A DNA stretch of 64,000 nt from Moraxella sp. TY6 (GCF_048551375.1 NZ_JBLYZJ010000006.1:80051-144050), one strand, 5' to 3'. Shown: positions 30,998 to 54,627, counted from the first letter of the stretch. The notes: generated from the sequence alone by a model not told the origin. Made by a program: numbers and translations.

Positions 30998-33004
30998 TTA
31001 TTCTGCATTGTTTGCTGAGTTATTTGTTGCCGAATTTTGGTTATCTAAACCATTCACCGATTTAGCGACTTTATCAGCAATGACATGATTAATTAACCCA
31101 TTTAACACATTGGATTTACCTGCCAATCCATCAATCGCCTTACCAATCGACAAGGATTTGGCAAAGTTATCAAAGAAATGTTCCTCACCGCCCACAATGT
31201 CGATTTTGGCTTTTTGTAGGGCAGTGGCAAGCACTTCGGCATTTTCTTTGGCGATTTCTTTGCCTGCTTCAATGGATGCCAATGCCTCTTGTAGAGCGGT
31301 TTCCAGCCCCATACGGTATTCTTCATGCTCACGAGCAGATTGGCTCATGCTACCCATCGCATTGAATTTTTCCACCAAGCCATCGGCTTCGGCTTTGAAG
31401 TGCTGACGAGTGACTTCGGCTTTGGCAAGTCCCACTTCTCGCTCGGCTTTGGCGTTGGATTCGCCACGCACGGCAATGACCTCGGCATTTGCCAAGCCAA
31501 TTTCACGGTCGGCAACCGCTTGGGCTTGACCAGATTTAAGGCGAGCTTCGGCTTCGGCTTCGCCAGTGGCTTTGATGACATTGGCTTTGGCAAGTCCTTC
31601 TTTCTCAAGGGCAACGGCTTTGGCTTCTTGAATCACCGCTTCGGCTACGCCATGAGCAGATTCTTCGGCTTTGATACCTTCTGCCAGTTTAATTTTGGCA
31701 TCGGCTTCTTTTTGAGCAGAATCGAGTTTGGCTTGAGCAAGGGTGATGATTTCTTGGGCTTTATGGCGAGCGGATAGCTCTTGAGCCTCGGCTTCTTTGA
31801 CCTGACGGACTTTGATTTCTTCGGCTTCGGCTTCGGCAGCCAAGATTTTGGTTTGTTTGGCACGGTCGGCTTCAGAGATTTGGCGGACTTCTTTGATACG
31901 CTCTTCTTCCATTGCCACGGTTTTATCCACGGCGACACGCTCACGCACCACATTGGCGATTTCTTTTTTCTCTTGCTCAATGGCTCGTTCGGCTTCGATA
32001 CGTTGTAGCTCGACTTCACGCTCACGAGAGACGATTTCTAACGCACGGGCTTTGGTGACTTTTTCTTCTTCAATCGCCACCGCACGCAGACGGTTTTGGC
32101 TGGCGACTTCGATTTCACGTTGTTGGATTTCACGTTGCACCGCCAAATCTTGCTCGACCAAAATCACCGCACTTTCGGCTTTTTTGCGTTCTTCTTCTTG
32201 AATGCGTTTGGTTTCGGCTTCCTCACGAGCGATAGACGAGGCGACTTCACGGCGTTGTTTGGCGGTGGCATCGGCTTGTTGGCGTTCTAGCTCTAGCATG
32301 GCTTCGGCGGTTTCGACATTTTTCTTTTTGATTGCCAGTTCTTGATTTCGCTCAAGTTCATTGGTATGCACGTTCTGCACAGCAGTGATTTCGGTGATTT
32401 TGCGAATACCTTCCGCATCTAGGATATTGTTGGGGTCAAGCGAGATTTTGGGGGTTTGCTCAAGGTAATCAATCGCCACATCTTCGAGGACATAACCTCC
32501 CAAGTCATTACCAATTTCACGGATAATGCGTTCACGAAATTCATGGCGATTTTCAAAAAGTTTAATAAAATCAATTTGTTTTCCCACGGTTTTGAGGGCT
32601 TCGGCAAATTTGGCATTAAACAGCTCATTGACGGCATCTTTGTCGGACGCTCGCTCGACACCGACCGTTTTGGCGACTTTTAGCACGTCTTCGGCAGTTT
32701 CGTTGACACGCAGATAAAAGGCGACCGAGATATCCGCTCGGATATTGTCACGGCAAATCAAGCCCTCTTTGCCACGTTTATCGACCTCAAGGCGAATTAG
32801 GGCAATCCGCATAAGTTCTTTGCGGTTGATGACGGGCCAAACCAGACCACCGTCAAACCGCACAGAAATTTTGTTGATACCATTGATAATTAAGGCATTG
32901 CCTTGGTCAATTTTGTAATAAAAGGCTTTGAGCATGAGTAGCAGTGCCATCACAAATACAAATACGATGACCACGACCACGCCGACCATAATTAGAATAT
33001 CCAT
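30998..33004 (-). CDS. flotillin-like SPFH/band-7 protein (YqiK-like) with long Ala/Glu/Lys coiled-coil
   Basis: 668 aa; N-terminal TM, SPFH domain, extended AEAK repeat coiled-coil; RBS AAGAGGAAA. Confidence 0.85.
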   Translation of the reverse strand: MDILIMVGVVVVIVFVFVMALLLMLKAFYYKIDQGNALIINGINKISVRFDGGLVWPVINRKELMRIALIRLEVDKRGKEGLICRDNIRADISVAFYLRVNETAEDVLKVAKTVGVERASDKDAVNELFNAKFAEALKTVGKQIDFIKLFENRHEFRERIIREIGNDLGGYVLEDVAIDYLEQTPKISLDPNNILDAEGIRKITEITAVQNVHTNELERNQELAIKKKNVETAEAMLELERQQADATAKQRREVASSIAREEAETKRIQEEERKKAESAVILVEQDLAVQREIQQREIEVASQNRLRAVAIEEEKVTKARALEIVSREREVELQRIEAERAIEQEKKEIANVVRERVAVDKTVAMEEERIKEVRQISEADRAKQTKILAAEAEAEEIKVRQVKEAEAQELSARHKAQEIITLAQAKLDSAQKEADAKIKLAEGIKAEESAHGVAEAVIQEAKAVALEKEGLAKANVIKATGEAEAEARLKSGQAQAVADREIGLANAEVIAVRGESNAKAEREVGLAKAEVTRQHFKAEADGLVEKFNAMGSMSQSAREHEEYRMGLETALQEALASIEAGKEIAKENAEVLATALQKAKIDIVGGEEHFFDNFAKSLSIGKAIDGLAGKSNVLNGLINHVIADKVAKSVNGLDNQNSATNNSANNAE

Positions 33005-41761: not shown

Positions 41762-41972
41762 TGGTAATCTGATTTAAAAGAATGATTTTAAGACTGGGTA
41801 ATAGCATACCACAATAGCCTGTCATTAGATGATTGGATTATGGCAAAAACTTAAATCGCCCTCAATAGTTAAACTTTGTTAAGGATTTTTATACCATAAA
41901 GCGACAATTCATTTGACTAGGTTATCACGCTGTTTGATTATAATGGGTAATAAATTTCTTGAGGTAATATCA

Positions 41973-42275
41973 ATGATTGATTTAATGAGTTCGTTGTCGA
42001 TTTTTATGGTTTATCCGTTTATTGCGTTTATCATTGCAGTTGTATTTTGGGGCTTGGGAATTGGGCTAAAAAGCAAGGTGTTAAAGGTCGCAAGCCTAGC
42101 ATGGGTGGGCTATGGCATTTGGGAATATTTGATGTATTTTAAGGTGCTTTGTAGTGGCGACTGCAATATTCGTATTGATTTATTGGTGATTTTTCCAATT
42201 TTACTGCTGTTTAGTGTTGGGGCGGTTGGTTATGTGATTTATCGAAAAACTAGAGGTAATCAAAAAATTCGTTAA
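41973..42275 (+). CDS. small hypothetical membrane protein (3 TM)
   Basis: AT-rich ORF, hydrophobic segments; 130 bp upstream of the 1042-aa gene on the same strand. Confidence 0.3.
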   Translation: MIDLMSSLSIFMVYPFIAFIIAVVFWGLGIGLKSKVLKVASLAWVGYGIWEYLMYFKVLCSGDCNIRIDLLVIFPILLLFSVGAVGYVIYRKTRGNQKIR

Positions 42276-42406
42276 ACCAAGAAATAGTCAAAGGGAATTT
42301 TGGACATTATTCGTGTGGTAGTCTATAAATTTCAGTTATTTGGTAGTATGATTACAAAATAGTTTTCATAATTACTCTAACAGATTAACGACACAAGGAA
42401 TAACCC

Positions 42407-45400
42407 ATGAGTGCAGGATTAATCAGACATCTAAAAGCCAAAACCGAACAAGATAGCAATACGGCTATTTTGCTTGCTCAATGGGAATTTGACCAAAAAC
42501 TGGTTGGCAAGGCTTTGGAAAATATTGCTAGCTATTATCCACACTTTAGCAGTCATAATGCTTCACATTCACACCAAATTCTTGTCAATATTGAGCGTTT
42601 ATTAGATAAAAATATAATTGAATTATCGGCTACAGATACTTGGCTGTTACTCGAATCTGCCTATTGGCATGATGTGGGTATGTTATTTAATAGCCAACAG
42701 GTTCAGGACATTATCAAAGATAGTAAGTTTAAAGAATATGTCGAAACCCTTGCCAATGATAATAGCCAAGATTTACACGAATTTGCGAAAAAATGGCATG
42801 ATACTGACTGGAAACAAGCCTTGGCAATGTATGACCATCCACAAAAAGGCGTGGAAAAATACCGCCAAATGGTGGCTGAATGGTATCGCCGTGACCATGC
42901 TAAAAACTCTCAACGTGTGGTCGCTGACCCTTTTGAAATTCTTGGTATTAACTCACCCCGCACCGAACTATTACCAAAACGCATTTATCGTTATTTAGGG
43001 CAAATTTGTCTTGCACATGGCACAAGTTTTGAGAGTGTCATGTCACAACTGCCCTATCGCCAAACAGGTATGGGAACAGAAAACTGCCATCCTCGATTTG
43101 TGGCGTGTATGCTACGCTTGGGCGATTTGTTTGATATTGATGATAACCGATTTTGCCCTGTTATGATGAAACAAACAACCATGCCAAAATTGAGTGAGGC
43201 TCATCATCATAAGCATTTGGCGATTCGTGAGTTTCAGCTTGATAACAAGACGGTCAGTATCACCGCAGAATGTGAAGATGAAGATGCGTATATCCAAACG
43301 CAGATGTGGTTTGGCTGGATTAAAGAAGAGATGCAAAATCAAATGTCACAATGGAAAAACATTGTGCCGAACCGTTCCTTTGGTCTGCTACCTACGATTC
43401 AAAAGCTTGATGTGGTGATGACAAGTTCTAAGATTTTGCTCAATAACAAGCCAATGAAGTTTGGGCTGGATGAGAAAAGTGCGATTGAGCTGTTGCAAGG
43501 TAGAAATCTGTACGATGATGAGACCAATATCTACCGTGAGCTGATTCAAAATGCGGTGGATGCGACCTATCTGCGAGTATGGATTGAGCATGGTATGCGT
43601 AAGCGTGAGATTACCGATGACTTCCATCCGTTTCATCCAAAGTTTCAAGAGATTTTGGAGAATTATCCGATTACCATTGATTTTGTAAAATTGGAAGATG
43701 AGCCGAATTCTGATTATAGTATTTGGCAGTTTAGTTTGACGGACAATGGGACTGGCATTAGCCTGAAAGATTTGGAGTATATGCAGAAGATTGCAGGGTC
43801 TAGTCGCAATGTTGAGAAAAAACGTTTAATGGCTGATATGCCTGTGTGGATGCGTCCGTCTGGTGCGTTTGGGATTGGGTTACATAGTGCGTTTTTGTTG
43901 CTAGATAAAGGCAGAGAGGAAGATAACAAGATTGTTCTTGAGACAAAGAGTATTGCGGATAATGCGTCTTATCGGATTGAGATGACTTCGCCAATTTCGG
44001 GGAATCAGGGGTACTGTTTTATTGAAAAATTAAGTGATGAAGAAAATTTAAAAAGGGATTATGGTACTAAGCTCAACATTAATATAAGGGTAGAAAGAAA
44101 AGGTAGAAGATATTTTTATCTATCTGATGAGTTTAAAGAAAACATATTAATAAATAAATACCAAAAAGAATTTGACACGTTAAAAACGCCAATTTTTGAT
44201 TTTTCTAAAATATTATTCATTACAAGAAAAATTCGTGAAAAAATCATTACAAATATCTCTGTACCAATAGAATTTAAGCATCTTGAAAGCATTAATAATA
44301 CAAATGGGAATGCTATCACGAATCCAATTAATAGCTTCACTCCCAATCATATACTTCGCATTTGGTATGGTAAAGAAAACTTATATGTATCTTTAATCAA
44401 TCTAAGCCAAGTTGACAGTCTTACATTTTTTGAGAGTAGCTTTAGATGTATGACTTATTTTAAAGGACAAGAAATAGACAGATTATCCGTCAATATTATT
44501 CCTTCGGACATGGATTTTTTCGGCTTTAATGCTAAAGAATCTCTTCAAATAGATAGAAATAAATGGAGCAAAAACTTCTTGGAAACTCTTGAAGAAAAAA
44601 ATTATTTCTTTGAATTGAATAAAAATATTATTATTGATAATTACTCTGATATTAAAGAGCATCTCTCAAATAGTAAAGTTATGAGTGCCTTACTTTACTA
44701 TTACAAGATAGAATACCTAGACAACAGTATTAAAGACTTATGGAAAGAGATGAAATTAACTACAAGTCATAATGTTAAATATAGTGCAAATCTTGATATT
44801 AGTTACAAAGGTTTAATAAGCTTAGACCAATTTACAATAGAAGAAGACACTACAGTAAATGGAAATTATATTAACAATATTAAAATCGAAGATTTACCGA
44901 ACAATACTATTGTAGTATCAAACTTGAACAATCATAACTATTTTTATGAAAATTTTGTAAATGAATGGTATAAATCAGGTGGAGATATTATTGAAACTAA
45001 AAGTGAAGAAATTAGAACCTTTAAGTTAAGAAAAATTAATCAAACTAATAATTTACTTTTTGAACATCTGAAAAATCAATTAAAGAGTAATGTTACAAGA
45101 ATAATATTAGATTCAGATGAGATAAGAGATTATAGTTTGAATTACTTGGAGGATATTATTTGTTTCAGTGAAGCTCATGAGAACTTTCTAGGAAATAATA
45201 CAAACCGTGAAAAGGTCTTCTTATCACCTTTTGCTTTCTTTAGAGATGATGAAAAAGCCATAATAGCTGTAGCAAATTTTGAATTTTTGTGTCAATCTGT
45301 GTTCGATGAGCTAAAGAAGAATGGAAAATATATCAGATTAGATTCAATCAAAGAAAAATATGAAAAATTCATTTCTCAAGCTGATGAATTAATGAAAAAT

Positions 45401-45535
45401 ATTCCAGAATGGGTTGAAGCAAGAGAGATGGGGAGAGACTTCATACCAAAAGATATTCGAGAGCTTGAAGATATGTTTAAACCATCAGATGAAGTTTTAA
45501 AGGCTTACGAATCTGAAAAAGAAAAAAGAAAATAA
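42407..45535 (+). CDS. 1042-aa HD-domain + GHKL (Hsp90/MORC-like) ATPase protein with AT-rich C-terminal extension; candidate defence or stress protein
   Basis: HD motif HSHQILVNIERLL..YWHDVGM (~42.56-42.68 kb); Bergerat-fold boxes RELIQNAVDA (43.53 kb), DNGTGIS (43.74 kb), GAFGIGLHSAF (43.86 kb); GC falls from about 42% to about 28% after ~43.95 kb. Confidence 0.8.
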   Translation: MSAGLIRHLKAKTEQDSNTAILLAQWEFDQKLVGKALENIASYYPHFSSHNASHSHQILVNIERLLDKNIIELSATDTWLLLESAYWHDVGMLFNSQQVQDIIKDSKFKEYVETLANDNSQDLHEFAKKWHDTDWKQALAMYDHPQKGVEKYRQMVAEWYRRDHAKNSQRVVADPFEILGINSPRTELLPKRIYRYLGQICLAHGTSFESVMSQLPYRQTGMGTENCHPRFVACMLRLGDLFDIDDNRFCPVMMKQTTMPKLSEAHHHKHLAIREFQLDNKTVSITAECEDEDAYIQTQMWFGWIKEEMQNQMSQWKNIVPNRSFGLLPTIQKLDVVMTSSKILLNNKPMKFGLDEKSAIELLQGRNLYDDETNIYRELIQNAVDATYLRVWIEHGMRKREITDDFHPFHPKFQEILENYPITIDFVKLEDEPNSDYSIWQFSLTDNGTGISLKDLEYMQKIAGSSRNVEKKRLMADMPVWMRPSGAFGIGLHSAFLLLDKGREEDNKIVLETKSIADNASYRIEMTSPISGNQGYCFIEKLSDEENLKRDYGTKLNINIRVERKGRRYFYLSDEFKENILINKYQKEFDTLKTPIFDFSKILFITRKIREKIITNISVPIEFKHLESINNTNGNAITNPINSFTPNHILRIWYGKENLYVSLINLSQVDSLTFFESSFRCMTYFKGQEIDRLSVNIIPSDMDFFGFNAKESLQIDRNKWSKNFLETLEEKNYFFELNKNIIIDNYSDIKEHLSNSKVMSALLYYYKIEYLDNSIKDLWKEMKLTTSHNVKYSANLDISYKGLISLDQFTIEEDTTVNGNYINNIKIEDLPNNTIVVSNLNNHNYFYENFVNEWYKSGGDIIETKSEEIRTFKLRKINQTNNLLFEHLKNQLKSNVTRIILDSDEIRDYSLNYLEDIICFSEAHENFLGNNTNREKVFLSPFAFFRDDEKAIIAVANFEFLCQSVFDELKKNGKYIRLDSIKEKYEKFISQADELMKNIPEWVEAREMGRDFIPKDIRELEDMFKPSDEVLKAYESEKEKRK

Positions 45536-45539
45536 TATG

Positions 45540-45575
45540 AAACGCCACAGTGAAATGTGGCGTTTTTATTGATAG
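45540..45575. terminator. rho-independent terminator (shared by convergent genes)
   Basis: aaacgccacagtgaaatgtggcgtttttatt. Confidence 0.7.
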
Positions 45576-45577
45576 AT

Positions 45578-46828: not shown

Positions 46829-47211
46829 AGCATTTCTCTAATTTTAATTGGCTTGTTTTAGGTCGTTTATTTTTAGGTAGCTGTTGGATGGATTTATTTT
46901 AACATAACTACAGTGGTTTTTTGGCGTTGGTTGCTTTCACAATAACTTTTGGTTATTCCATCAATTTCGCCCTAGCCTTTTTGTGTGCGTTCTGTTAAAA
47001 TACGCAAAATCTATATCCAAGCGAGTAGGCATGACAAAGTTAATGGCACACACTGGTAAGTATCATCAAGACCAGTTAGCTATTTTCTTTTAAATCAATG
47101 CTTCCTCGCTTTTTTGTGGGCGAAATTTGGTCTTTTTAAGACAAAAAAATTTTGCCTGTAAAAAGGTATGGTACAAAATTTGACATTTGGCAGACACAGG
47201 GCGAAGCAACG

Positions 47212-48402
47212 ATGAAAACACAAATTCCCGCAATTTTGGCATTAACCGATGGCACAGTTTTTAAGGGCATTAGCATCGGTGCAAGCGGACACACCGTTGG
47301 CGAAGTGGTGTTTAACACCGCCATGACAGGCTATCAAGAAATCCTGACCGACCCTAGCTATGCCGAGCAAATCGTCACCCTCACCTACCCACACATCGGC
47401 AATACAGGCACGAATGCCGAAGACACCGAATCTGGGCGTATCAAAAAGGTATGGGCAAACGGCTTGATTATCCGTGATTTGACCATGGTAACTAGCAACT
47501 TCCGCTCAACCGAATCTTTGACCGATTATTTGTTCAATAACAACACGGTCGCCATTGCCGATATCGACACTCGCAAGCTCACTCGCCTACTCCGTACCAA
47601 AGGGGCAATGAACGGCTGTATCATGACCGCAGACGCTGACGGCAATCTTGATGAGGCGAAAGCGGTGGCACTTGCTCAAAGTTTTGCAGGCATTAAAGGC
47701 ATGGACTTGGCAAAAGTCTGCTGTGATAAAGACGGCTTTGAGTGGACGCAAGGCTCTTGGGAATTGGTTAGCCCTGAAGTGAGTAGCACTTGTGGACGTT
47801 TTAAAGAACTTGGCACGGATATCGAAAAACGCTTTAACATCGTGGCGTATGATTTTGGCATTAAAACCAATATCTTGCGTATGCTTGTGGATAGAGGCTG
47901 TCATGTCACCGTTGTCCCTGCCCAGACCCCAGTTGCGGATGTTTTAAAACACAATCCAGATGGTATTTTCTTGTCAAACGGTCCTGGCGACCCTGCACCT
48001 TGTACTTATGCGATTGAGGCGATTAAGCACGTCATCACCGAAACGGATATTCCGCTATTTGGGATTTGTTTGGGTCATCAGTTGCTGGCGTTGGCAAGTG
48101 GGGCGAATACGCTTAAGATGAAGTTCGGTCATCATGGGGCGAACCACCCTGTGCAAGATATTGAGAATGGTACGGTGATGATTACGTCACAGAATCATGG
48201 TTTTGCGGTGGATGAAGACAGCTTGCCAAGTAATGTAAAAGTAACGCATCGTTCGTTGTTTGATGGGTCGAATCAAGGCATTGAATTGACGAATAAGCCT
48301 GCGTTTAGTTTCCAAGGTCACCCAGAGGCAAGCCCCGGCCCGCATGACTGCTCGCCGTTGTTTGATAAATTCGCTGAGTTGATGGTGAAAGCGAAAGGTT
48401 AA
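47212..48402 (+). CDS. carA: carbamoyl-phosphate synthase small (glutaminase) subunit
   Basis: start at ATG 47212 ([19 protein letters not shown]..); GATase catalytic region ICLGHQLL. Confidence 0.95.
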
Positions 48403-48404
48403 TA

Positions 48405-48974
48405 ATGGCAATTAAATTAGACGGTTCTTGGTCGGTCGGTTATGCCTATGACAAACATATCGAACATAGCACATTTTTGGGCTATGATGACCAAGGTCGC
48501 CCTTTATTTGACACCACTCGCACCTATTATATGGGTGAGTTGATTTACCAACTCAAATATCAGCAAAAACTTGATAACATTGATAAAATCATCGATTTAT
48601 TACTCGCTCAATTTTCTAATTTTGAAAAATTTAACATGGTTGTGCCAGCACCGTTTTCCACCCCCCGATTGCACCAACCTGTTTATTTAATCGCCGAGCA
48701 GTTAGCCAAACGACTGAATATCAGTTATCAGCCGATATTGCACAAAATACAGGCAAAAATTCCACTCAAAAACTTAGCAACATTTGATGAAAAGATAGAA
48801 AATTTGTCACACAATATTGAGCTAGATAAACAAAGCAATGTTGCCAATCAAACTATTTTGCTACTAGATGATTTATTTGACAGTGGAGCAACGCTCGATT
48901 CTGCCACACAACTACTGATGCAAGCAGGGGCAAAAGAAGTAAATGTCTTGGTACTTACCAAAACTCGAGGATAA
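48405..48974 (+). CDS. phosphoribosyltransferase (PRTase)-domain protein, ShosT-like
   Basis: 189 aa; PRPP-binding loop ILLLDDLFDSGATL; ATG 2 nt after the carA stop. Confidence 0.6.
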   Translation: MAIKLDGSWSVGYAYDKHIEHSTFLGYDDQGRPLFDTTRTYYMGELIYQLKYQQKLDNIDKIIDLLLAQFSNFEKFNMVVPAPFSTPRLHQPVYLIAEQLAKRLNISYQPILHKIQAKIPLKNLATFDEKIENLSHNIELDKQSNVANQTILLLDDLFDSGATLDSATQLLMQAGAKEVNVLVLTKTRG

Positions 48975-48977
48975 ACC

Positions 48978-49541
48978 ATGCAACCGATATTTTTTTCAGG
49001 TTCTCGAAGTTTAGTCAGCTTACCAGCTATGGTACAGCAACGTATTTTTGACAATATTTTGCAAAAAAACTTCCCTATTGTCATTGGGGATGCTGATGGT
49101 GCAGATAGCACATTACAAGCGTTTTTTGCGACCCAATACTATGATTTGGTGAAAGTTTTTTGTGCAGGTGGCAAATGCCGTAATAATATAGGTAATTGGC
49201 AAATTCAGACCATTGCAAGCTCTGCCAAAGGTCGAGCCTTTTATACCGCTAAAGATGTAGCAATGGCAAATGTCGCTAATTATGGGTTTGTGCTTTGGGA
49301 TGGTCAAAGCATTGGTTCGCTTAATAATATTGCTGAGTTATTAAAGCAAAACAAACCATCATTGGTCTATTTTGAGCCTAATCAACAGTTTATAAAAGTT
49401 GTATCAGAACAGGACTTGAATGATTTATTACAAATCGCTGATAAAGGTTTGGCAAATACCATTATCCAAAAGGGTTCAACATATTTAAAGCAACTATCAA
49501 AGAATGGTAATTTTTATCAACAGAATAGTTTGTGGAATTAA
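48978..49541 (+). CDS. DprA/Smf-like SLOG Rossmann-domain protein, ShosA-like
   Basis: 187 aa; FFSGSRSL..PIVIGDADGADS..CAGG pattern typical of DprA/LOG-type SLOG domains; RBS GAGGA. Confidence 0.55.
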   Translation: MQPIFFSGSRSLVSLPAMVQQRIFDNILQKNFPIVIGDADGADSTLQAFFATQYYDLVKVFCAGGKCRNNIGNWQIQTIASSAKGRAFYTAKDVAMANVANYGFVLWDGQSIGSLNNIAELLKQNKPSLVYFEPNQQFIKVVSEQDLNDLLQIADKGLANTIIQKGSTYLKQLSKNGNFYQQNSLWN

Positions 49542-49784
49542 AGGAAAATACTGTTTCCACCTTCGTAAATGTAGTTGCCAAAACGTATTTTTATAGTTAA
49601 CACTGAATTATAGTGAACAAGGTCGTTCGTGGTGAGCTTGTCGAACCATAACGACCGCCACCCTTCGACAGGCTCAGGGCGAGCGGTGTTCATTATGATT
49701 TCGGATTCACTATAACAAAGTGGCTAATTGAATTTGAGTATGATGAATTTTATTTGGATTAATAATTGGGTAAATGAATAAGCA

Positions 49785-50900
49785 ATGACCGAAATTAAAA
49801 TCAAAGACTTGCGTGGTGTCGGTGACGTTGAGCTACAACTTGACGATAGCAAACGTGTCTTTGTTTTTTTTGGGTCAAATGGTGTTGGGAAAACGAAAAC
49901 GTTAGAAAGCTTGTTCCTTTTTCTTTTTTATAAAACTACTGGTTTTAAATTTGAATTAGAAAAAGATAATATCTTTAATTTTTTTAAAAACATAACATAT
50001 TCTAATAAAAAACTGAAATTCGTTGATTATTTTTTCAGAGATAGTAATGCTCTTTTTTTTGATTATCACTATTTAAAAGATTTAGTACCCTATTTTGGCT
50101 ATCAAGCTATTGCCTATTTAGGTGCAAATGAGAGAAGTAAAATCTTAAAAAGTTCTGATAGTCATAGTTTAAACAATGGATTATCGGATAGAAAAAATAA
50201 TTATATATTATCTATACACAACGCAATTAATGACCAAACATTAACTAATTTTGCGATGAATCAAAATATTCATCTTTGGTTTACCGAGCGAGCCAAATCC
50301 GTCAATCCCTACCAAAAAGAAGAAGACAATCGCAAAGTTGATATTGATACGGTTTTAAATGCATTAAACATTTTAGACAGTCGCATTGAAAAAACGCTAA
50401 AAATTGATGGTGACGGCAATGTGTTTTTAACCATTGAAGGACAAGAACGAGAGTTAAGCGAATTAAGCTCTGGTTTTATCTCGGTGGTAAAAATCATTCA
50501 ATCCATAATTTCAGCTTATTCCGCCTTTACCAATGCCACCGATTTATTAAACGTCAAAGGCGTGGTATTGATTGACGAAATTGAAAGCCATTTACACATC
50601 GAATGGCAAACCAAAATCGTACCGACTTTAAAAAATTTGTTTCCCAATACCACATTCTATATCGCTACCCATTCGCCATTAGTATTATCACAGTTAGACG
50701 AAGGCGAAGCTTATTTATTAAAGCGTGATGATGACAATGTTGTAAGAAGTTCGGTAATCAACTCGCCTAACACTCGATTACTTGAAAATGTTTTGCAAGA
50801 TGCTTTTGATGTCGATTTGAACCAATTAAAACGTGACAATATGGAACATATCGACCAAAGTAAAGCTAAACAAAAATTACTAGCACTATTAAACAGATAA
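49785..50900 (+). CDS. ABC-type AAA_21 ATPase (AT-rich)
   Basis: 371 aa; Walker A GSNGVGKT, VVLIDEIESHLH Walker B/D-loop, ATHSP H-loop; about 30% GC. Confidence 0.7.
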   Translation: MTEIKIKDLRGVGDVELQLDDSKRVFVFFGSNGVGKTKTLESLFLFLFYKTTGFKFELEKDNIFNFFKNITYSNKKLKFVDYFFRDSNALFFDYHYLKDLVPYFGYQAIAYLGANERSKILKSSDSHSLNNGLSDRKNNYILSIHNAINDQTLTNFAMNQNIHLWFTERAKSVNPYQKEEDNRKVDIDTVLNALNILDSRIEKTLKIDGDGNVFLTIEGQERELSELSSGFISVVKIIQSIISAYSAFTNATDLLNVKGVVLIDEIESHLHIEWQTKIVPTLKNLFPNTTFYIATHSPLVLSQLDEGEAYLLKRDDDNVVRSSVINSPNTRLLENVLQDAFDVDLNQLKRDNMEHIDQSKAKQKLLALLNR

Positions 50901-50911
50901 CAGGTGAAGCG

Positions 50912-51364
50912 ATGACTCAAAAATCTGTTTTAGTGGATGCTAATATTTTAATTGCCATGATTGATGGTGATAATACAAACCCAAATCACGTTGAAGCAAA
51001 ACAAAAATTTAATGATTTGATAGAGCAAAATGTTGCCATTGCCATTACGCCTTTGATTCGTTATGAAGTGTTGCGTGGTATAAAAAGCATTTCGATTGAT
51101 GAAGCCCAAGCGATTTTAGACGATTTTGTTGAGTTTAACATCACGGATAAAGAAGCCAATCCATCCGCTAAAATTTTCCATTTCAGCCGAAGTGATGATT
51201 TTTTGGCAAAAAATACAGGGATTAAATTAGACAAACAAAACTTTGACGTATTTCATTACGTTGTTGCCAAGATTCGTCATTTAGAACTGGTCAATGTGAA
51301 TCAAAAAGACTTTAACAAAATTGAAAATGTGATTGATTTAATGCCAAATTCCCCATTTGAGTAA
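50912..51364 (+). CDS. PIN-domain (VapC-like) nuclease
   Basis: 150 aa; [11 protein letters not shown]-terminal acidic motif, later conserved E, and [10 protein letters not shown]-terminal PIN motif. Confidence 0.6.
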
Positions 51365-51384: not shown

Positions 51385-54300
51385 ATGCCAAAACGTACAG
51401 ATATCAAATCCATCTTAATCATCGGTGCAGGTCCAATCGTCATCGGACAAGCCTGTGAATTCGACTACTCAGGTGCTCAAGCCTGTAAAGCCTTGCGTGA
51501 AGAAGGCTACCGAGTCATTCTCGTCAACTCAAACCCAGCCACCATCATGACCGACCCTGTCATGGCGGATGCCACCTACATCGAGCCGATTACATGGCAA
51601 ACCGTTGAGCGTATCATCGAAAAAGAACGCCCAGATGCCATCTTGCCAACCATGGGCGGACAGACCGCACTTAACTGTGCGTTAGACCTTGATAAACATG
51701 GCGTATTGGCAAAATACGGCTGTGAGCTAATCGGTGCGACCAAAGATGCCATCGAAAAAGCCGAAGACCGTGACCTATTCGACAAAGCCATGAAAAAAAT
51801 CGGCTTAGAATGTCCTCGTGCCGAAGTCGCAGGCAATATGCAAGAAGCCTTTGAAATCCAAGCCAAAGTCGGCTTCCCTTGTATCATTCGTCCATCATTC
51901 ACCATGGGCGGTTCGGGCGGTGGTATCGCTTACAACCGTGACGAATTTGTCGAGATTTGCGAACGTGGTTTTGACCTGTCGCCGACCAAACAGCTATTGA
52001 TTGACGAAAGCTTAATCGGCTGGAAAGAATACGAAATGGAAGTCGTGCGTGACAAAAACGACAACTGTATCATCATCTGTTCAATTGAAAACTTCGACCC
52101 AATGGGCGTACACACAGGCGACTCGATTACCGTTGCCCCTGCTCAGACTTTGACCGACAAAGAATACCAAATCATGCGAAATGCCTCGATTGCGGTATTG
52201 CGTGAGATTGGCGTGGAAACAGGCGGTTCAAACGTCCAGTTTGGCATCGACCCAAAAACAGGGCGTATGGTTGTCATCGAGATGAACCCTCGTGTTAGCC
52301 GTTCTTCTGCGTTAGCGTCTAAGGCGACTGGCTTTCCGATTGCCAAAATCGCTGCCAAACTCGCCGTTGGTTACACGCTTGATGAACTCAAAAACGACAT
52401 CACAGGCGGTAAAACCCCAGCCAGTTTTGAGCCATCAATTGACTATGTGGTGACCAAAGTACCTCGTTTTAACTTTGAAAAATTCCCACAAGCCGATAAC
52501 ACGCTATCAACGCAAATGAAGTCAGTCGGTGAAGTCATGGCGATTGGGCGTAATTTCCAAGAGTCGATGCAAAAAGCCTTGCGTGGGCTTGAGATTGGCG
52601 TGAATGGTTTTGATGAGTATTTGGATTTAAACCAAGATACTGACAGCATTCGTAGTACACTGAAAGTTAAACTAAAAACCCCGACCCCAGAGCGTATTTT
52701 CTACGTTGCCGATGCGTTCCGCTTTGGCATGAGTGTGGATGAGGTGTTTAACTTTACCAACATTGACCCTTGGTTCTTGGTACAAATCGAAGACATCGTT
52801 AAAACCGAAAAACAAGTCAAAGAAACGGGCTTTGGTGGTTTGACAGCCGATGTGTTACGTGCGTTTAAACGTAAAGGTTTATCAGATTTACGCCTTGCTA
52901 CCTTACTTGGTATTTCACAAAAACAACTGCGTAAAAAGCGTTGGGATTTGGGCGTTTATCCTGTTTATAAACGTGTCGATACTTGTGCCGCCGAGTTTGA
53001 AACTTCAACCGCTTATATGTACTCAAGCTATGACGATGAGTGCGAAGCACAGCCGACCAATAACAAAAAAATCATGGTCATCGGTGGTGGCCCAAACCGT
53101 ATCGGACAAGGCATTGAGTTTGATTATTGCTGTGTGCATGCGGCATTGGCAATGCGTGAAGACGGTTATGAAACCATCATGGTGAACTGTAACCCAGAAA
53201 CCGTTTCGACCGATTATGATACCTCTGACCGTCTATATTTTGAGCCGATTACCCTTGAAGATGTACTAGAAATCGTACGTATCGAAAAACCTGAAGGCGT
53301 GATTGTGCAGTATGGTGGTCAAACGCCATTGAAACTTGCTCGTGCCTTAGAAGCCGCAGGTGTGCATATCATCGGTACTAGCCCAGATGCCATCGACCGT
53401 GCCGAAGACCGTGAACGCTTCCAACACATGATTAACCAGTTAGGCTTTACTCAGCCACCCAATGCGTTGGCGACCAGTACCGAAGACGGTATTGTCAAAG
53501 CCGAAAAAGTCGGCTATCCGCTGGTGGTGCGTCCTTCGTATGTGTTGGGCGGTCGTGCCATGGAAATCGTGTATAACGAAAGCGAACTCCGCCGTTACTT
53601 GCGTGAGGCGGTACAAGCCTCGAATGAAGCCCCTGTGCTACTTGACCGCTTCCTTGATGATGCGATTGAGGTCGATGTGGATTGTATCTCGGACGGCACA
53701 AACGTGGTGATTGGCGGTATCATGCAACATATCGAACAGGCAGGCGTGCATTCTGGCGACTCGGCTTGCTCGATTCCGCCTTATTCGCTCGGTCAAGAGA
53801 TTTGTGATGTCATGCGTGAGCAAACGGTGGCAATGGCAAAAGAGCTTGGCGTGGTCGGCTTGATGAACGTGCAATATGCGGTCAAAGACGGCGTGGTGTA
53901 TATCCTTGAGGTCAATCCTCGTGCCTCTCGTACCGTGCCTTTTGTGTCAAAATGTATCGGCACATCGCTTGCCCAAGTCGCCGCTCGCTGTATGGCAGGC
54001 AAAACCTTGGCAGAGCAAGGCTTTACCCAAGAGGTGATTCCAAGTTTCTTTGCGGTCAAAGAGGCAGTATTCCCATTTGCCAAGTTTCCGGGGGTTGACC
54101 CAATCCTTAGCCCAGAGATGAAATCAACGGGTGAAGTCATGGGCGTGGGTCAGACCTTTGGCGAAGCGTATTATAAAGCTATCATCGGTAGTAATGACCG
54201 CTTACCTGGTTTGCCAGTTGATGGTGAAGTGAAAAAAGTCTTCCTATCGGTGCGTGATAGTGATAAAGCCAACTTAATTCCGATTGCCAAACAATTCATC

Positions 54301-54627
54301 GAATATGGCTTTGGATTGGTTGCCACAGGCGGTACGCATCAAGTATTAAGCGATGCTGGATTGGCATGTGAAAAAGTCAACAAAGTCAATGAAGGTCGCC
54401 CACATATTGTTGATGCCATCAAAAATGGTGAAATTGCCATTGTGGTAAACACTACTGAAGGCAAACAAGCCCACGAAGATTCGTTCTCAATTCGCCGTAG
54501 TGCCTTGCAACACAAAGTGTTTAATGTGACAACGCTCAATGCGGCGGCGGCGGTGGCGGAAGCCTATAAAGTACAATTGCCGTTTGAAGTATATAAATTG
54601 CAAGAATTGCACGCTCAAGCGAAATAA
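51385..54627 (+). CDS. carB: carbamoyl-phosphate synthase large subunit
   Basis: 1080 aa; duplicated ATP-grasp halves, unmistakable CarB sequence. Confidence 0.97.

What the first reader, a model, noticed from the sequence alone, without database searches (positions are those of the whole stretch)
42407..45535. 1042-aa HD-phosphohydrolase + GHKL ATPase fusion with compositionally foreign C-terminal half
The N-terminal about 330 aa carry an HD metal-dependent phosphohydrolase signature (H..H...HD). They are followed by a complete Bergerat-fold ATPase (N-box RELIQNAVDA, G1 DNGTGIS, G2 GAFGIGLHSAF) of the Hsp90/MORC/MutL type, not the histidine-kinase type. The remaining ~540 aa are encoded by about 28% GC DNA, rich in Asn/Lys/Ile codons, with no recognisable domain. 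HD+GHKL fusions are not part of any standard housekeeping pathway. GHKL modules recur in bacterial conflict systems (paraMORC-like). The abrupt GC drop mid-gene suggests domain shuffling or recent acquisition.
Basis: partly seen in the sequence, partly recalled or inferred. Interest (0 to 1): 0.8.

Follow-up and report, generated by a model that had tools for sequence, protein, structure and literature searches.

The report
HD effector fused to Hsp90-like ATPase
This single 1042-residue gene joins a metal-dependent "conflict-effector" HD hydrolase to an Hsp90-type ATPase whose rear half is swapped like a cassette between strains; this layout was predicted in 2023 to be a bacterial immune protein and, as far as I could find, has not been tested experimentally.

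The parts
42407..45535 (+). Complete ORF, 1042 aa: HD-CE + Hsp90-like N domain + Hsp90-like middle domain + family-specific C-terminal region
42395..42399 (+). Shine-Dalgarno AAGGA, 7 nt upstream of the ATG
   Evidence: sequence read
42539..43336 (+). HD-CE phosphohydrolase domain (residues 45-310). H46, H50, H54, H88-D89, H164, H204, H228, D240, D243, D245, H266 and H270 are invariant across three phyla.
43454..44101 (+). Hsp90-type Bergerat ATP-binding domain (residues ~350-565). Motif I E378/N382/D385, G1 D446xGxG450, G2 G486xxGxG491.
44129..44686 (+). Hsp90-type middle domain (residues ~575-760). Variable in sequence, but W653, Q688, L713 and R717 are kept. R717 (codon 44555-44557) aligns with the HtpG catalytic-loop Arg in LNVSRE.
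44687..45532 (+). C-terminal ~280 residues: a confidently folded alpha/beta region with no match among solved structures. Hypervariable, and the proposed sensor or specificity region.
44040..44120 (+). Breakpoint (residues ~545-570) where GC and identity to the nearest homologues both fall (88% to 25-35% aa)
45347..45532 (+). Re-conserved C-terminal tail (residues 981-1042; 54-63% aa and 67-73% nt identity to the nearest homologues). A possible 3' anchor for cassette recombination.
   Evidence: consensus P.W.EA...G..F.P.D
45540..45565 (.). G+C-rich hairpin, a terminator-like site usable on both strands, shared with the convergent ubiH-like gene
41913..42275 (+). Small low-GC ORF (100-120 aa, hydrophobic) inside the same insert. 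It is not found next to any homologue, so it is probably passenger DNA and not a partner.
41762..45577 (.). Low-GC insert between two FAD-monooxygenase (UbiH/UbiI-like) genes on the minus strand. No flanking repeats were detected.

Best explanation
A stand-alone, single-polypeptide immune (anti-phage or anti-mobile-element) protein of the HD-CE/HSP90-like class.

Shown here:
- An intact HD-CE metal-dependent phosphohydrolase is fused to an Hsp90-type ATPase with an N domain and a middle domain, followed by a family-specific C-terminal region.
- Both catalytic centres are invariant across phyla.
- From residue ~550 onward the protein is hypervariable, and in Moraxellaceae it is exchanged as a cassette.

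Inferred:
- The variable middle and C-terminal region corresponds to the client-binding part of Hsp90. It acts as the sensor that binds an invader-derived molecule, most likely a protein.
- Binding drives the ATP-dependent clamp cycle of the Hsp90-like module: N-domain closure, completed by R717.
- That conformational change releases or assembles the N-terminal HD-CE domain.
- The HD-CE domain then hydrolyses free nucleotides (NTPs, dNTPs or a nucleotide signal). This stops replication of the invader and possibly growth of the host.
For: - Architecture.
- Catalytic residues of both enzymes and R717 are invariant in Gammaproteobacteria, Bacteroidota and Bacillota.
- The HD domain is nearest to GppA/PPX and cyclic-nucleotide phosphodiesterases. 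No HD nuclease appears in the top 60.
- 'CE' stands for conflict effector. Related predictions from the same 2023 survey have since been validated as nucleotide-depleting defences: PUA-Cal-HAD and Clover.
- Hypervariability: pairs that are 90-95% identical over residues 1-545 are a median 22% identical over 571-980. The break is sharp, at residues 545-570. The rear half has almost no relatives in 1.84 billion sequences.
- Accessory-gene behaviour: different loci in different lineages, IS and transposon neighbours, plasmids, and an integrative element with AbiTii and nSTAND3. Truncated or split copies occur in 4 of about 30 loci.
- No conserved partner gene.
Against: - There is no experimental evidence for defence, for ATPase or HD activity, or for any substrate.
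- PADLOC v2 has no model that hits it.
- Many copies lie among housekeeping genes, not in defence islands.
- The C-terminal region does not resemble the Hsp90 C-terminal dimerisation domain, so an Hsp90-like dimeric clamp is assumed and not shown.
- The nearest structural relative of the HD domain, the PPX/GppA C-terminal domain, is not the catalytic domain of those enzymes.
- The defining paper could not be read here.
- In Bacteroidota the rear half diverges gradually, so cassette-type diversification is not a universal property of the family.
Confidence: 0.55

Rival explanations
1. A nucleic-acid-targeting restriction-like enzyme. The GHKL module would clamp DNA or RNA as MORC, MutL or Topo VI-B do, the variable rear half would read a sequence or modification, and the HD domain would act as a nuclease. 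This parallels paraMORC proteins and the GHKL-Shedu protein VcSduA.
For: - GHKL-nuclease fusions are validated defences (VcSduA).
- HATPase_c_3, the MORC/MutL-type Pfam model, gives a weak hit.
- HD domains can be nucleases, as in Cas3 and Cas10 (established knowledge).
- One close homologue lies beside a 1522-aa AAA_11/AAA_12 helicase with a nuclease-like domain.
Against: - The middle-domain catalytic residue is an Hsp90-style Arg, not the Lys of MutL, GyrB or MORC.
- The HATPase_c_3 score is below the Pfam cut-off (20.8 against 25).
- The helicase neighbour is not conserved.
Confidence: 0.2
2. A selfish or inter-element competition module, such as an addiction, exclusion or anti-plasmid function carried by mobile elements, and not a host anti-phage system. 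The same biochemistry would be aimed at rival elements.
For: - The nearest relatives of this copy sit next to an IS3 transposase, or within a resolvase, PIN, NYN and transposase cluster.
- Distant members are on plasmids next to recombinases and replication or partition genes.
- One weak hit is on an unverified phage-like scaffold.
Against: - Most Psychrobacter and Acinetobacter copies are chromosomal, at stable genus-specific positions with no mobility genes nearby.
- There is no antitoxin-like partner.
Confidence: 0.12
3. A housekeeping or stress protein: a specialised Hsp90 paralogue with an HD domain that adjusts a nucleotide signal such as (p)ppGpp or cyclic nucleotides. Its rear half would simply be drifting under weak constraint in AT-rich DNA.
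For: - Fixed positions beside purL or fadBA within genera.
- The HD domain resembles GppA, SpoT/Rel and phosphodiesterase folds.
- The Bacteroidota clade evolves gradually.
Against: - Only 25 loci were found in the genome scan, all in Moraxellaceae, though that scan used two stringent patterns.
- There are truncated copies.
- Proteins with nearly identical N-terminal halves have rear halves that are only 15-22% identical, which drift cannot produce.
- The rear half is confidently folded and keeps invariant residues.
- Copies occur on plasmids and integrative elements.
Confidence: 0.05

Closest known systems
HD-CE effector family (Pfam PF24391) and the HSP90-coupled systems predicted by Nicastro, Burroughs, Iyer and Aravind, Nucleic Acids Res 2023;51:11479
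   Same: The HD domain is a full-length, high-scoring member (E=4e-54). It is fused to an Hsp90-like ATPase. As I recall from that paper's abstract, HSP90-related modules act as analogues of STAND NTPases coupled to nucleotide-targeting effectors.
   Different: I could not read the paper, so I cannot say whether this Moraxellaceae clade, its cassette-type rear half or its fixed loci were described. I found no experimental test of any HD-CE/HSP90 protein in the searched literature.
Hsp90 chaperones (HtpG, TRAP1, GRP94)
   Same: Bergerat N domain with motifs I-III; a middle domain with the catalytic-loop Arg; best hits by both sequence profile and structure.
   Different: It has an extra N-terminal HD enzyme. 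The C-terminal 280 residues do not match the Hsp90 dimerisation domain or any solved fold. It is an accessory, hypervariable gene and not a conserved core gene.
paraMORC and GHKL-Shedu (VcSduA) defence proteins
   Same: A GHKL ATPase fused in one chain to a hydrolytic effector. ATPase and effector are both needed in VcSduA (PMC12137116).
   Different: There the GHKL is MORC/MutL-like and the effector is a PD-(D/E)xK DNA nuclease at the C-terminus. Here the GHKL is Hsp90-like and the effector is an N-terminal HD-CE domain.
STAND/Avs and bacterial NLR-like sensors
   Same: The same logic: a nucleotide-driven switch, a rapidly diversifying sensor region and a fused effector in a single large protein.
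   Different: A different ATPase superfamily (GHKL, not P-loop STAND). No repeat-type (TPR, LRR or WD40) sensor is present.
Nucleotide-depleting defences: dGTPase and Clover (CloA HD dNTPase), PUA-Calcineurin-CE-HAD, SAMHD1
   Same: The predicted output is hydrolysis of free nucleotides by a metal-dependent phosphohydrolase. Clover and PUA-Cal-HAD stem from the same 2023 survey and have been validated.

Membership tests
HD-CE (Pfam PF24391) | Full-length match to the family profile above the curated cut-off | tested here: met
   E=4e-54, 184.5 bits against a cut-off of 27; profile positions 2-262 of 263
HD-CE (Pfam PF24391) | Intact HD-superfamily metal-binding residues (H...HD...D plus extra His) | tested here: met
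   H50, H88-D89, H164, H204, H228, D240, D243 and D245 are invariant in 94 homologues and across three phyla
HD-CE (Pfam PF24391) | Occurs as the effector of a conflict system, in variable and mobile contexts | tested here: inconclusive
   Plasmids, IS elements, an integrative element, and Abi or nSTAND neighbours in some loci. Housekeeping flanks at fixed loci in most Moraxellaceae.
HD-CE (Pfam PF24391) | Nucleotide-degrading activity | not testable with these tools
   Needs enzymology
Hsp90 family | Bergerat ATP-binding fold with motif I (E..N..D), G1 (DxGxG) and G2 (GxxGxG) | tested here: met
Hsp90 family | Middle domain supplying a catalytic-loop arginine | tested here: met
Hsp90 family | C-terminal dimerisation domain | tested here: not met
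Hsp90 family | Match to a curated Hsp90 equivalog model | tested here: not met
   NCBIfam PRK14083: 34.2 bits against a cut-off of 455. It is Hsp90-like but not an orthologue.
MORC / paraMORC / MutL-type GHKL | HATPase_c_3 match above cut-off, and an S5-fold transducer with a catalytic Lys | tested here: not met
Sensor histidine kinase | HisKA/DHp phospho-acceptor domain plus a kinase-type HATPase_c domain | tested here: not met
   No such Pfam hit at E<=0.1. The 'histidine kinase' names on some homologues come from automatic annotation.
Catalogued anti-phage systems (PADLOC-DB v2.0.0) | Match to any model of a known or candidate system | tested here: not met
   0 families at E<=0.1

The most novel reading that the evidence does not exclude
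An Hsp90-type chaperone machine has been converted into an innate immune receptor. Its client-binding rear half, which ends in a ~280-residue fold with no solved relative, would be the pathogen-recognition surface. In Moraxellaceae this rear half exists as an allelic series of interchangeable cassettes at fixed chromosomal loci (ampD-purL in Psychrobacter, beside fadBA in Acinetobacter). Cassettes would be exchanged by recombination between the conserved N-terminal 550 residues and a conserved 60-residue tail. Recognition of a phage protein as a 'client' would switch on the HD nucleotide hydrolase.
Probability: 0.3. Interest if true: 0.75.

Novelty: new member of a known kind. Interest (0 to 1): 0.5.

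Why it matters
If the prediction holds, this would be a one-gene immune system in which a chaperone-type ATPase, not a STAND NTPase, couples recognition of an invader to destruction of nucleotides.

The Moraxellaceae clade provides a natural experiment. Dozens of proteins share nearly identical enzymatic halves but have unrelated rear halves. These could be used to map what each cassette recognises and to test directly whether the Hsp90 client-binding region has become a pathogen sensor.

It would also add a defence gene in Acinetobacter, which includes clinical species where phage therapy is being explored, that PADLOC v2 does not detect.

Tried and rejected

2. Sensor kinase: rejected, because there is no HisKA domain.

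3. A conserved partner gene: rejected. Clustering neighbours in 30 loci found none. The upstream 120-aa ORF is unique to this strain.

4. Flanking repeats or att sites around the insert: none found.

5. Recent acquisition of the low-GC half at this locus: rejected as stated, because the GC gradient is present in all 22 Moraxellaceae loci examined.

6. A search with the GHKL segment alone, to find the same module on other effectors, returned only 6 fragments and was uninformative.

7. The HD segment against PDB sequences gave no hit at E<=10.

8. Literature searches for HD-CE, Hsp90-like defence and GHKL+HD found no paper on this architecture. The defining paper (PMC10681802) is not held.

9. 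The genome-contig scan used two very stringent peptide patterns. Its restriction to Moraxellaceae therefore reflects the method. tblastn on plasmids and a profile search then showed large clades in Bacteroidota and members in Enterobacterales and Bacillota.

Full report
OBSERVATION. The ORF at 42407..45535 (+) is real: 1042 codons with an ATG start. An AAGGA ribosome-binding site lies 7 nt upstream. A G+C-rich hairpin at 45540-45565, followed by a T run, is shared with the convergent downstream gene. The DNA for residues 561-1042 is 27.1% GC against a window mean of 42.8% (sd 4.0). It is the lowest-GC 1.45-kb stretch in the whole 64 kb. Asn+Lys+Ile make up 30% of these residues against 20% in the front part. 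At that composition, an open frame of 482 codons would arise by chance with probability about 3e-19 (my calculation), so this part is coding.

DOMAINS. Pfam places residues 45-310 in HD-CE (PF24391, E=4e-54, 184.5 bits against a cut-off of 27). It gives a sub-threshold HATPase_c_3 hit for residues 378-499. NCBIfam gives only weak hits, the best being an 'HSP90 family protein' model, and PADLOC v2 gives nothing. A profile of 94 full-length homologues searched against all PDB sequences finds only Hsp90 proteins, with HtpG best at E=2e-4. That alignment runs on into the middle domain and places the family's invariant L713...R717 on HtpG's LNVSRE catalytic loop.

CONSERVATION. In 94 Moraxellaceae homologues the HD metal ligands, the GHKL motifs and W653, Q688, R717 and P941 are invariant. 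The same HD and GHKL residues (apart from G486) and R717 remain invariant when homologues from Hymenobacter, Pantoea and Lachnospira/Eubacterium are added. Both enzymes therefore look active.

THE REAR HALF IS A CASSETTE. Compared with the three nearest homologues, identity is 91-92% in the HD part and 86-88% in the ATPase N domain, but only 30-38% after residue 570. A sliding comparison shows the fall is abrupt, at residues 545-570. That is where the GC drops. Identity recovers to 54-63% in the last 60 residues.

Across all pairs in the alignment, proteins that are 90-95% identical over residues 1-545 are a median 22% identical over 571-980. Even pairs at 95% or more include cases of 15%. A phmmer search of residues 571-1042 against 1.84 billion representative proteins finds six hits, all from the same family or fragments of it. 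This pattern indicates replacement by recombination and not gradual divergence.

The GC gradient (HD above ATPase above rear half, the last at 0.24-0.30) is present in all 22 Moraxellaceae loci examined, whatever the GC of the host genome. It is therefore a property of the family and not a recent event here.

A large Bacteroidota clade behaves differently (more than 100 proteins of about 960-980 aa). Its rear half evolves faster than the front, but in step with it. For front-half identity above 90%, rear-half identity has a median of 77%.

CONTEXT. In this window the gene lies in a low-GC insert (41762-45577) between two UbiH/UbiI-like monooxygenase genes. A small hydrophobic ORF in the insert occurs next to no other family member. 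No flanking repeats were found. The source record is GCA_048551455.1.

Clustering the neighbours in 30 loci shows no conserved partner gene.
- Eleven Psychrobacter loci lie between ampD (Amidase_2) and purL, sometimes with kbl-tdh between.
- Twelve Acinetobacter loci lie convergent with fadBA.
- The closest relatives of the window's protein lie elsewhere. One is next to an IS3 transposase. Another is beside a 1522-aa helicase in a cluster with resolvase, PIN, NYN and transposase genes.
- Four loci carry truncated or split copies.

Distant members are found:
- on a Hymenobacter plasmid between recombinases, near an AbiEii toxin;
- on a Pantoea plasmid next to AAA-ATPase and UvrD-helicase genes;
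- on the Lachnospira eligens megaplasmid, 4 kb from an Abi gene;
- on a Bacillus mycoides plasmid near IS3 and sce7726-family genes;
- in Flavobacterium, inside an integrase-bearing element next to AbiTii and an nSTAND3 NTPase.

Other Bacteroidota copies sit among ordinary genes. The picture is of a solitary accessory gene. Its association with defence or mobile DNA is real but not uniform.

LITERATURE. 'CE' means conflict effector. Calcineurin-CE, and by Pfam naming HD-CE, trace to Nicastro, Burroughs, Iyer and Aravind 2023. That paper is not in the library. From memory, its abstract states that HSP90- and HSP70-related modules act as analogues of STAND and GTPase domains coupled to these nucleotide-targeting effectors. 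Two other predictions from that survey have since been validated as nucleotide-depleting defences: PUA-Calcineurin-CE-HAD and Clover. A GHKL-nuclease fusion, VcSduA, is a validated defence of a different GHKL type. I found no experimental work on an HD-CE/Hsp90-like protein.

INTERPRETATION. The architecture, the conserved active sites, the cassette behaviour and the solitary accessory status are shown. The rest is inferred:
- The variable middle and C-terminal region senses an invader-derived molecule.
- Sensing drives the Hsp90-like ATP cycle.
- This activates the HD-CE domain to hydrolyse free nucleotides, stopping the invader.

I put about 0.55 on this overall: about 0.95 on the architecture, about 0.7 on an immune role, and about 0.4 on the specific mechanism. 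The main rival is a DNA- or RNA-directed MORC-like clamp with an HD nuclease (0.2). It is disfavoured by the Hsp90-over-MORC ranking, the Arg-type catalytic loop and the phosphodiesterase-like HD fold. The remaining rivals are an element-versus-element competition module (0.12) and a housekeeping role (0.05).

VERDICT. This is a conflict-type protein with real domain shuffling, but it is Hsp90-like and not paraMORC-like. The architecture was already predicted computationally. It is a new member of a known, experimentally untested kind. What seems most worth following up is the cassette-like rear half at fixed loci in Moraxellaceae and its C-terminal fold with no solved relative.

Noticed in passing
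window 48405..51364: A second small defence islet is inserted between carA (47152..48402) and carB (51385..54627). It holds a phosphoribosyltransferase hitting the PADLOC PsyrT (2.6e-22) and ShosT (2.6e-12) models, followed by a 187-aa protein with no Pfam hit. Next come a PtuA-like AAA_15/AAA_21 ATPase (PADLOC PtuA 1e-35) and a PIN-domain protein where Septu normally has an HNH PtuB.
   Followed up: partly
window 29996..30969 (-): Two adjacent, slightly overlapping ORFs (30385..30969 and 29996..30397) match the N-terminal (positions 2-191 of 327, E=6e-64) and C-terminal (206-324 of 327, E=9e-42) parts of the PADLOC candidate defence protein PDC-S23. This is a frameshifted or split copy.
   Followed up: partly
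window 22119..33004 (-): A gene for a 2005-aa protein with DUF3686 ('ATPase involved in DNA repair'), DUF7902 and an AAA domain is followed by a DUF4062 protein (28143..29390). A 668-aa protein with no Pfam hit (30998..33004) lies beyond the split PDC-S23. None hits PADLOC, so this may be another uncharacterised conflict locus.
   Followed up: partly
L006, L008, L013, L014, L029 and others (Psychrobacter); L009-L027 (Acinetobacter): The family occupies genus-specific fixed sites: ampD-purL in Psychrobacter, and convergent with fadBA in Acinetobacter. It carries highly divergent rear halves at the same site, an allelic-series pattern and not island mobility.
   Followed up: partly
L007, L008, L023, L028: Truncated or split copies of the gene (746, 158+835, 818 and 707 aa) in Moraxella equi, Psychrobacter frigidicola, Acinetobacter seifertii and Psychrobacter piscatorii suggest recurrent inactivation.
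   Followed up: no
L002 1716..6284: The close homologue P0002 lies immediately downstream of a 1522-aa AAA_11/AAA_12 helicase with an MTES_1575 domain and a faint nSTAND3 signal. The mobile cluster also carries resolvase, PIN_3, NYN/OST-HTH and transposases. It is unclear whether the two large genes work together.
   Followed up: no
window 41913..42275 (+): A hydrophobic 100-120-aa ORF of 35% GC lies inside the same insert, with no Pfam, PADLOC or NCBIfam hit, and is not seen beside any homologue. Whether it is expressed or functional is unknown.
   Followed up: partly
homologue annotations: Several family members are named 'histidine kinase' or 'HSP90 family protein' in NCBI and UniRef. The kinase name is unsupported, because there is no HisKA domain.
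   Followed up: yes
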